Part shown: positions 37,416-38,600 of the stretch, piece by piece
Position numbering within the stretch: position 1 is the first letter of the stretch
How the letters are laid out: the number at the start of each line of letters is the position of its first letter
DNA from: Escherichia coli
GTDB lineage: Bacteria; Pseudomonadota; Gammaproteobacteria; Enterobacterales; Enterobacteriaceae
Assembly: GCF_045037415.1 (NCBI RefSeq)
Contig: NZ_CP173438.1
Strand: one strand, 5' to 3'
Length of the DNA stretch: 64,000 nucleotides
Notes under the pieces: model-generated
Databases searched by the model: none
What the model was told of the DNA's origin: nothing
What the model saw: only the letters and a program-made list of their open reading frames with translations
Position numbers and translations under genes: made by a program

Positions 37416-37708
37416 GTTACTATCCTTATCAACAAATATTAAAACCATAATAGATATTTCTTTATAGTTTTCATCTGATTCTGAGGCGATATGCCTGATA
37501 GTAACGTAAACCTGTCTGATGTTTATATCTCTTCTGTTTAGTTGAGCTCAGTTAATTTTTGGGCGTGGCATGAGTATCCATTGTTCCATAATTTATATTA
37601 GGAGGTTTTTAATCTTTTCGTGTCTAATGTTATTTATCTGATTAAGTATTGATTGTGTCTTTTGCGGAAGTGGTGTCGAGCTTATCGTTTCAATGTTATT
37701 AATAAGAC

Positions 37709-37984
37709 TTACAAGTTGAGCCTCAACTTTGAGTAGTCTGCATTTGTATATGTGGTGTTCGTATGGCACGCATTAATTTGTTGGCGTTGTTGTTGCGCTA
37801 AATCAAATTGTTTAGAGGTGTATCCTTCTCCAGAGAATGGGGAATTAATGGGTTGTTGTTCTTCCCGGTTATCACAAGGCCACTTCGGTGTGTCTGGCGT
37901 TTTAACATTATCGGTATTTGTTGTGCAGTTATAAATATCACCGTTATATGTATTTATTACACCTGGGGTAAAGTCAATTGACAT
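37709..37984 (-). CDS. hypothetical 91 aa protein, N/T/Q-rich; possibly a remnant of yhiS
   Basis: only ORF over 60 aa in the 1.2 kb AT-rich slp-arsC interval; AGGA Shine-Dalgarno-like sequence upstream of the ATG; no recognisable family. Confidence 0.3.
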
Positions 37985-38452
37985 AACATTCCTTATTCAT
38001 CATTTGTTTTATGCTAAGATTTTAAAATTGGATAATTAGAACAGGAATGGATTTTCTTCTACATACAGTAAATATAATGCGTCATATCTTCCTGATATAA
38101 TTACCTTTGACTTCTCTTTTATTTCCATCTGGTAATATTTGAGTGCAAAAAAAGGCAATAATAATATCGCAAAAGAAAACGTTAACAACTATCGAAAATG
38201 CTCGTTTTAAAAAGGTATGATGTTCTCTGATAGTGTGTGAAGTGATATTTTTGTGATGTTTTAGATATGTAATAATAAAATGGGTTAACGTATGTTGAAA
38301 TTATTTATTGTGCAAACCACTGATAGATCATAATCCAGTACATCTTTACAGTGCTGCACTGTATCGCTGATAACTAAGCAGCTCACTGATACACCATGCT
38401 GGACGCGATAATTGGAATCTCACGCAGGGAGTACTGTGTAAATAGCAAAATC

Positions 38453-38552
38453 GCCTGATGCGCTACGACTGTCAGGCCTACAAATAACATACAATTCATC
38501 GAATTATCATAACGTTGTAGGTCGGATAAGACGCGTCAGCGTCGCATCCGAC
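38453..38552. repeat. REP elements downstream of arsC
   Basis: GCCTGATGCGCTACGACTGTCAGGCCTAC and GTAGGTCGGATAAGACGCGTCAGCGTCGCATCCGAC. Confidence 0.7.
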
Positions 38553-38600
38553 ATAAATAAAGCGCATTTTTCTAACAACCTGTGGGGGAATATAGCCGCT

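What the first reader, a model, noticed from the sequence alone, without database searches (positions are those of the whole stretch)
37416..38600. 1.2 kb AT-rich interval between slp and arsC with one 91 aa orphan ORF
K-12 carries the IS5-disrupted yhiS pseudogene at this position. Here there is no IS, only a low-complexity N/T/Q-rich 91 aa ORF with a plausible SD, surrounded by AT-rich sequence and followed by REP elements. It could be a decayed yhiS remnant or a small strain-specific protein.
Basis: partly seen in the sequence, partly recalled or inferred. Interest (0 to 1): 0.4.

Follow-up and report, generated by a model that had tools for sequence, protein, structure and literature searches.

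The report
Decayed yhiS pseudogene remnant, B2 lineage
The 91-codon reading frame between slp and arsC is the broken front end of the yhiS gene, which lost its last two thirds and then picked up a frameshift in the B2 lineage of E. coli; RefSeq already annotates it as a pseudogene, so it is ordinary.

Summary
The interval 37416-38600 lies between slp and arsC and falls to 27-37% GC. It has no IS element. It contains a 91-aa ORF (37709-37984, minus strand) with an AAGGA Shine-Dalgarno, and two REP hairpins sit next to arsC.

The ORF is not an orphan. Intact 407-aa YhiS proteins align to it in two frames: aa 1-87 in one, aa 86-127 in another, and aa 128-407 are missing. Two lesions explain this. 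A ~900-bp deletion (junction about 37591-37606) removed the 3' two thirds of yhiS plus ~69 bp downstream. A 1-bp loss in an A-run (37728-37730) then shifted the frame.

The same junction occurs in 1051 of 5426 complete E. coli genomes, including ST131 (100% identical here), CFT073, 83972 and ST95. The deleted segment is present in 4363 others.

Disabling mutations are nested across strains. HH97 has the deletion only (128-aa ORF). The window and ST131 add the frameshift (91 aa). CFT073 and ST95 add +T and then -CAA (57 aa). That pattern indicates neutral decay.

PGAP annotates a frameshifted, truncated pseudogene at exactly this place, and UniRef names the 91-aa product YhiS.

Verdict: already known, low interest.

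The parts
37416..37591 (-). Retained slp upstream (promoter/regulatory) region, on the slp side of the deletion
   Evidence: 96-97% identical to the sequence just upstream of slp in S30, K-12, 50EVA and 806883-9-2019.
37592..37606 (.). Junction of the ~900-bp deletion that removed yhiS codons ~128/131-407 plus ~69 bp downstream of the stop
   Evidence: Against strain 806883-9-2019 the two alignment blocks abut at 37591/37592, with 900 bp (L012 1497-2396) missing. Against S30, 911 bp are replaced by about 11 bp. Only a few bases of microhomology are present. A query spanning the junction hits 1051 of 5426 genomes.
37592..37984 (-). yhiS 5' remnant (pseudogene): codons 1 to ~127-131 with one internal frameshift
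   Evidence: tblastn of intact YhiS. PGAP pseudogene at window 37605-37984 in SK1144. Nucleotide alignments.
37709..37984 (-). The 91-aa ORF: YhiS residues 1-86 followed by 5 out-of-frame residues (LRLNL) and a stop
   Evidence: The exact sequence is in public databases on at least 1000 contigs (e.g. BAI56863.1), with the UniRef name 'YhiS'.
37728..37730 (-). Frameshift site: the coding-strand A-run is AAA here and AAAA in intact alleles and in HH97
   Evidence: Alignments.
37985..38440 (-). AT-rich yhiS upstream region (27-34% GC). It is the homologue of the K-12 arsC/yhiS 'promoter island', which is bound by H-NS/StpA in K-12
   Evidence: Composition. About 92% identity to K-12 3650176-3651669. 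Literature: PMC3661553 and bioRxiv 10.64898/2026.02.10.705075. Mapping the island to roughly 37900-38365 is my own coordinate conversion and is approximate.
38453..38481 (+). REP element, Y-type
   Evidence: 3 mismatches to the Y-type consensus, which I recalled from memory; 0 matches expected by chance. Forms a hairpin.
38517..38554 (-). Second REP-like imperfect palindrome; together with the first it makes a BIME-like pair
   Evidence: Hairpin of -20.8 kcal/mol, z = -5.4. Weak, sub-threshold Rfam hits to the REP-derived naRNA4. My recalled Z-type consensus did not match within 3 mismatches.

Best explanation
The interval is the yhiS locus in its phylogroup-B2 form, and it is a non-functional relic. 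yhiS is an AT-rich (33% GC) gene restricted to Escherichia and Shigella. It encodes a 407-aa protein of unknown function and sits between arsC and slp.

In an ancestor of the B2 lineage, a ~900-bp illegitimate deletion removed codons ~128/131-407 and about 69 bp of downstream DNA. This left the native promoter region, ribosome-binding site and first ~130 codons. A later 1-bp loss in an A4 run shifted the frame after codon 86, which produces the 91-codon ORF seen here. Sister B2 lineages carry further lesions.

The AT-rich DNA upstream is the old yhiS regulatory region. By homology with K-12 it is probably coated and silenced by H-NS/StpA. The REP pair is the usual extragenic repeat downstream of arsC.

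Shown here: the homology, the lesions, their nesting across strains and their population frequency. Inferred: the order of the events, the lack of function, and H-NS silencing in this strain.
For: - **Two-frame alignment.** Intact YhiS aligns in two frames and its C-terminal 280 aa are missing.
- **Lesions.** Nucleotide alignments pinpoint the deletion and the A-run frameshift.
- **Synteny.** The gene order arsC-yhiS-slp-dctR is the same as in K-12 and S30.
- **Frequency.** The junction is present in 1051 of 5426 complete genomes, once per genome, and the strains listed include ST131, CFT073, 83972, ST95 and O18. The deleted segment is present in 4363 of 5426. The two counts add to 5414 of 5426, which fits a near-clean split, though I did not check overlap between the two sets.
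- **Nested decay.** HH97 has the deletion only (128 codons). The window, SK1144 and DETEC-P881 add the A loss (91 codons). A32 adds +T (57 codons). CFT073, ST95-32 and GN02323 add a further CAA loss.
- **Existing annotation.** PGAP annotates 'frameshifted; incomplete; missing C-terminus'.
- **Independent inactivation elsewhere.** yhiS is also broken in K-12 (IS5) and in S30 (internal stop plus a late frameshift), so the gene is dispensable.
- **Silencing in K-12.** Literature reports yhiS as H-NS/StpA-bound and not induced by YdeO.
Against: The start codon, the SD and ~600 bp of native upstream DNA are intact. The first 86 codons carry no stop. Some transcription and translation of a 91-aa peptide therefore cannot be excluded from sequence alone. 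dN/dS of the first 86 codons against intact alleles is 0.32-0.44, but this mostly reflects the time before inactivation and is not informative about the remnant. No expression data for a B2 strain were available.
Confidence: 0.94

Rival explanations
1. The 91-aa ORF is a functional, lineage-specific small protein. On this reading a truncated N-terminal YhiS domain is expressed from the native yhiS promoter and ribosome-binding site.
For: The ATG, the AAGGA SD and the upstream region are intact. The identical 91-aa sequence is found on at least 1000 contigs, and about 563 complete genomes carry the junction at 99% identity or more.
Against: The ORF's last 5 residues come from a frameshift, and its length varies within B2 (128, 91 or 57 codons) through nested indels. 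The high copy number is more simply explained by heavy sequencing of ST131 clones than by selection; this is my inference. The N-terminal 86 aa are low-complexity (34% N+T+Q), have no Pfam match, and were modelled as disordered or at very low confidence (pLDDT 23-36). In K-12 the region is H-NS/StpA-bound and silent.
Confidence: 0.04
2. The interval matters as cis-regulatory DNA rather than as a gene. The deletion moved the AT-rich, H-NS-nucleating yhiS upstream region ~900 bp closer to slp and removed most of a second K-12 'promoter island' just upstream of slp. This would change silencing or read-through of the slp-dctR acid-resistance operon in B2 strains.
For: yhiS and slp are on the same strand, and no terminator-like site was found between them. 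K-12 literature lists both arsC/yhiS and insH11/slp as H-NS-bound promoter islands and lists slp-dctR and yhiS as StpA/H-NS targets. Only 176 bp of native slp upstream DNA remain.
Against: This is purely inferential. The proximal slp upstream region is retained at 96-97% identity. The simple promoter scan found no enrichment over shuffles (8 sites against 5.9 +/- 2.5). There are no expression or ChIP data for B2. A side-effect of the deletion would also be compatible with the pseudogene explanation rather than replacing it.
Confidence: 0.1
3. The short interval is an assembly artefact, or a private deletion in this one isolate.
For: None beyond the fact that the interval is ~900 bp shorter than in most E. 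coli.
Against: The identical junction is found once per genome in 1051 independent complete assemblies. The whole 1185-bp interval is 100% identical in several of them.
Confidence: 0.005

Closest known systems
yhiS (b3504) pseudogene of E. coli K-12 MG1655
   Same: It is the same locus between arsC and slp, with the same start and the same upstream region (about 92% nucleotide identity). In both strains the gene is inactivated.
   Different: K-12 keeps all 1224 bp of coding sequence, split by IS5. This allele has no IS, has lost ~900 bp including codons ~128-407, and carries a 1-bp frameshift after codon 86.
Intact 407-aa YhiS 'hypothetical protein' (e.g. WP_000020622.1 in strain 50EVA, WP_022646234.1 in 806883-9-2019)
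   Same: The first 86 residues are collinear and 76-87% identical. Residues 86-127 are recognisable in a second frame.
   Different: The intact protein is full length. The window lacks 69% of the protein.
PGAP pseudogene in B2 reference genomes (DAECLI1_RS01105 in SK1144, ABS744_RS01435 in CFT073)
   Same: It is the same feature at the same position. SK1144 is 100% identical over the interval.
   Different: There is no difference from SK1144. CFT073 carries two extra indels, which shorten its first ORF to 57 codons.
'Promoter islands': H-NS-silenced AT-rich DNA (Panyukov and Ozoline 2013, PMC3661553)
   Same: The AT-rich stretch upstream of the remnant is homologous to the K-12 arsC/yhiS island.
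   Different: H-NS binding has not been measured in this strain. The simple sigma-70 scan shows no excess of promoter-like sites. Most of the second K-12 island (insH11/slp) lies in the segment deleted here.

Membership tests
yhiS locus / YhiS protein family | Position between arsC and slp-dctR, on the same strand as slp | tested here: met
   Annotated regions of SK1144, S30, K-12 and CFT073.
yhiS locus / YhiS protein family | Significant sequence similarity to intact 407-aa YhiS | tested here: met
   tblastn: aa 1-87/96 with E from 1e-43 to 1e-59, and aa 86-127 in a second frame.
yhiS locus / YhiS protein family | Uninterrupted full-length reading frame (a functional member) | tested here: not met
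   aa 128-407 are absent and there is a frameshift after codon 86.
Pseudogene (decaying relic) | Disabling lesions relative to intact homologues | tested here: met
   A ~900-bp 3' deletion and a 1-bp deletion in an A-run. PGAP flags it as 'frameshifted; incomplete'.
Pseudogene (decaying relic) | Further lineage-nested disabling mutations, so that the ORF is not conserved | tested here: met
   ORFs of 128, 91 and 57 codons across 8 B2-type strains, with nested indels. Cluster members are 57, 90, 91 or 92 aa long.
Pseudogene (decaying relic) | No protein product made | not testable with these tools
   This needs Ribo-seq or proteomics in a B2 strain.
REP / BIME extragenic repeats | Match to the REP consensus, with an imperfect palindrome that forms a hairpin | tested here: met
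   38453-38481 matches the Y-type consensus (recalled from memory) with 3 mismatches, 0 expected by chance. It forms a hairpin.
REP / BIME extragenic repeats | A second REP in inverse orientation, forming a BIME | tested here: inconclusive
   38517-38554 forms a strong hairpin (z = -5.4) and gives weak hits to the REP-derived naRNA4. My recalled Z-type consensus found nothing within 3 mismatches.
Promoter island / H-NS-silenced DNA | Very high density of promoter-like signals | tested here: inconclusive
   The simple scan found 8 sites against 5.9 +/- 2.5 in shuffles. This is a different algorithm from the PlatProm program used in PMC3661553.
Promoter island / H-NS-silenced DNA | H-NS/StpA occupancy | not testable with these tools
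   Reported for the K-12 homologue only.
Pentapeptide-repeat proteins (considered for intact YhiS) | Pfam PF00805 match above the gathering score | tested here: not met
   E = 0.7, 10 bits against a cut-off of 20.2.

The most novel reading that the evidence does not exclude
The most novel reading the evidence leaves open has two forms. In ST131-type strains the yhiS stump might still be translated into a 91-aa N/T/Q-rich microprotein with a new role. Alternatively, the B2-wide 900-bp deletion might rewire H-NS/StpA silencing or read-through over the adjacent slp-dctR acid-resistance operon, giving B2 strains a different acid-stress response.
Probability: 0.05. Interest if true: 0.3.

Novelty: already known. 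Interest (0 to 1): 0.07.

Why it matters
It matters little. The result closes the question: the ORF should be annotated as a yhiS pseudogene fragment, not as a new small protein.

It has some minor uses:
- The deletion junction is a clean marker. It is present in 1051 of 5426 complete genomes, and every strain I could place belongs to phylogroup B2.
- The nested indels (128, then 91, then 57 codons) give a small worked example of stepwise pseudogene decay.
- yhiS has been inactivated independently at least three times (IS5 in K-12, a stop codon plus a late frameshift in S30, a deletion in B2). This suggests that this AT-rich, Escherichia-only orphan gene is dispensable in many niches.

Tried and rejected
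- **Pfam.** Scans of the intact-type YhiS sequence and of the 91-aa ORF gave nothing significant. The pentapeptide match had E = 0.7.
- **Remote homologues.** An exhaustive phmmer search of a 407-aa YhiS against 1.84 billion representative proteins found one full-length representative and otherwise only fragments. No remote homologues appeared, so function cannot be transferred from a relative.
- **Structure.** AlphaFold2 on a 16-sequence YhiS alignment gave mean pLDDT 32.9 and pTM 0.20. That is unusable, so I ran no fold search.
- **Rfam.** An E-value scan of 36000-40000 found nothing above gathering score inside the interval. The only hits there were sub-threshold naRNA4 matches on the REP. 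AgrB lies outside the interval.
- **Promoters and terminators.** Promoter-like sites were not enriched, and no terminator-like sites were found.
- **Repeats.** No direct repeats flank the deletion, and the junction has only a few bases of microhomology. Recombination between long repeats is therefore rejected.
- **Possible paralogue.** A weak tblastn hit of YhiS aa 123-230 to window 26161-26496 (E about 0.1) overlaps hdeB and the start of yhiD. I dismissed it as chance.
- **Second REP.** My recalled Z-type REP consensus did not match it.
- **slp regulation.** The YdeO paper did not give coordinates that would show whether slp regulatory sites were lost.

Full report

Yes. On the minus strand the window carries dctR (36166-36696), slp (36849-37415), the 91-aa ORF (37709-37984), arsC (38601-39026) and gor (39498-40850). 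This is the K-12 order gor-(ars)-yhiS-slp-dctR read in reverse.

GC falls from about 50% in slp and arsC to 27-37% across 37300-38400. The minimum, 27%, is at 37900-38200.

The ORF's ATG at 37984 is preceded by AAGGA with a 5-nt spacer. Its product is 34% N+T+Q.

No IS is present. K-12 does have IS5 inside yhiS at this position.

A Y-type REP lies at 38453-38481. A second strong REP-like hairpin lies at 38517-38554 (z = -5.4), and it gives weak Rfam hits to the REP-derived naRNA4.

**2. What is it?**

A megablast of the interval against 5426 complete E. coli genomes found it 100% identical in several strains. In most others it was about 91% identical but split into two pieces spanning about 2.1 kb.

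In strain SK1144, which is identical to the window here, PGAP annotates a pseudogene at window 37605-37984.

A protein search starting from the S30 allele recovered many intact 407-aa 'hypothetical protein / YhiS' sequences. Every hit that carried a source name came from Escherichia or Shigella.

tblastn of four of these intact proteins against the window gave a consistent picture:
- aa 1-87 align to 37984-37724 in frame -1.
- aa 86-127 align to 37730-37605 in frame -3.
- aa 128-407 have no match.

The 91-aa ORF is therefore YhiS residues 1-86 plus five out-of-frame residues (LRLNL) and a stop.

**3. The lesions**

Against strain 806883-9-2019, which has an intact yhiS, the two homology blocks abut at window 37591/37592, and exactly 900 bp of that strain's sequence are absent. 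The missing stretch is the last ~276 codons plus 69 bp downstream of the stop. Against S30, 911 bp are replaced by about 11 bp.

The junction shows only a few bases of microhomology, and there are no flanking direct repeats. The cause was therefore illegitimate recombination or slippage, not IS excision and not recombination between long repeats.

The frameshift is the loss of one A from an A4 run (coding strand), at window 37728-37730.

**4. Population picture**

A 130-bp query spanning the junction matches once per genome in 1051 of 5426 genomes. The strains listed include O25b:H4-ST131 (100% identical), CFT073, 83972, ST95 and O18, which are phylogroup B2 strains. The deleted 911-bp segment is found in 4363 of 5426 genomes. 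The two counts add to 5414 of 5426, which fits a near-clean split, though I did not check overlap between the sets.

An alignment of eight deletion-bearing strains shows nested decay:

| Strain(s) | Lesions | First ORF |
|---|---|---|
| HH97 | deletion only | 128 codons |
| window, SK1144, DETEC-P881 | deletion, -A | 91 codons |
| A32 | deletion, -A, +T | 57 codons |
| CFT073, ST95-32, GN02323 | deletion, -A, +T, -CAA | 57 codons |

This is what a neutrally decaying pseudogene looks like, and it is not what a conserved small protein looks like.

The exact 91-aa sequence is already in public databases on at least 1000 contigs (for example BAI56863.1). UniRef names it YhiS, and its 90% cluster contains 57-, 90-, 91- and 92-aa variants.

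**5. What was lost?**

Intact yhiS is 1224 bp and 33% GC. Two intact alleles differ by dS 0.27 and dN 0.115, giving dN/dS of about 0.43. That indicates weak constraint and unusually deep allelic divergence for E. coli. Protein identities within the family range from 72 to 99%.

The gene is taxonomically restricted. A filter-only phmmer search over 1.84 billion representative proteins found a single full-length representative and otherwise only fragments.

There is no significant Pfam domain. AlphaFold2 gave an unusable model with mean pLDDT 32.9. Its function therefore stays unknown.

yhiS has been inactivated independently in K-12 (IS5) and in S30 (internal stop plus a late frameshift).

Three K-12 studies bear on expression:
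- The arsC/yhiS intergenic region and the insH11/slp region are listed among 78 H-NS-bound, transcriptionally silent 'promoter islands' associated with horizontally acquired genes (PMC3661553).
- yhiS and slp-dctR are named as H-NS/StpA targets (bioRxiv 10.64898/2026.02.10.705075).
- yhiS is not induced by YdeO, although YdeO binds nearby (PMC4222967).

By my own approximate coordinate conversion, the first island corresponds to window ~37900-38365, which is the GC minimum. Most of the second island lies within the segment deleted here.

**6. Mechanism**

The best-supported reading, at about 0.94 confidence, is a dead relic. It consists of an H-NS-type AT-rich former promoter region, a 5' gene stump with a frameshift, the retained slp upstream region, and ordinary REP elements downstream of arsC.

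- Shown here: the homology, the lesions, their nesting and their frequency.
- Inferred: the order of events, silencing in this strain, and the absence of a product.

Two rivals remain possible:
- A translated 91-aa microprotein (about 0.04).
- A cis-regulatory side-effect on slp-dctR (about 0.1, and compatible with the main reading rather than replacing it).

A third rival, an assembly artefact, is excluded.

**7. Novelty and verdict**

This is already known. RefSeq annotates the feature as a pseudogene in B2 genomes, and the peptide is catalogued as YhiS. Interest is low, at about 0.07.

Noticed in passing
window 39027-39300 (junction at 39087-39090): arsR and most of arsB are deleted. The missing stretch corresponds to K-12 3648490-3650175, about 1.7 kb. 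arsC is left as a lone gene, with only the last ~49 bp of arsB upstream of it. SK1144, CFT073 and HH97 have the same arrangement. An arsenate reductase without its efflux pump or repressor is an odd remnant.
   Followed up: partly
window 39201-39285 (-), and dinQ at 39361-39444 (+): There is only one Agr antisense sRNA copy (Rfam AgrB, 91.6 bits) next to the dinQ toxin gene. K-12 has two, agrA and agrB.
   Followed up: partly
window 27-36 kb (chuS at 35081-36109, +): chuS lies directly next to dctR, with hdeA, hdeB and yhiD further upstream at 25.6-27.1 kb. A chu haem-uptake locus therefore appears to sit between yhiD and dctR, unlike in K-12. This fits a chuA-positive (B2-type) strain.
   Followed up: no
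L011 1563-2786 and L012 1566-2789 (intact yhiS in strains 50EVA and 806883-9-2019): Intact YhiS is an Escherichia/Shigella-only orphan gene: 33% GC, alleles only 72-99% identical at the protein level, dN/dS about 0.43. It has no Pfam domain, no remote homologues among 1.84 billion representative proteins, and no confident AlphaFold model. The allelic divergence is unusually deep for an E. coli chromosomal gene.
   Followed up: partly
L011 3366-3904 and L012 3369-3907: In the two strains with intact yhiS that I examined, the gene upstream of yhiS is annotated 'permease' rather than arsC. The ars side of this locus therefore also varies between lineages.
   Followed up: no
L002 3355-4470 (strain S30): The S30 yhiS allele is itself a pseudogene, with an internal stop near codon 345 and a late frameshift. 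This is a third, independent route to yhiS inactivation, alongside IS5 in K-12 and the B2 deletion.
   Followed up: partly
window 37600-37605 (+): A perfect AGGAGG sits on the plus strand right at the deletion junction in the ST131-type allele only; CFT073 and HH97 read CAGAGG there. No start codon follows at a suitable distance, so it is probably chance.
   Followed up: no
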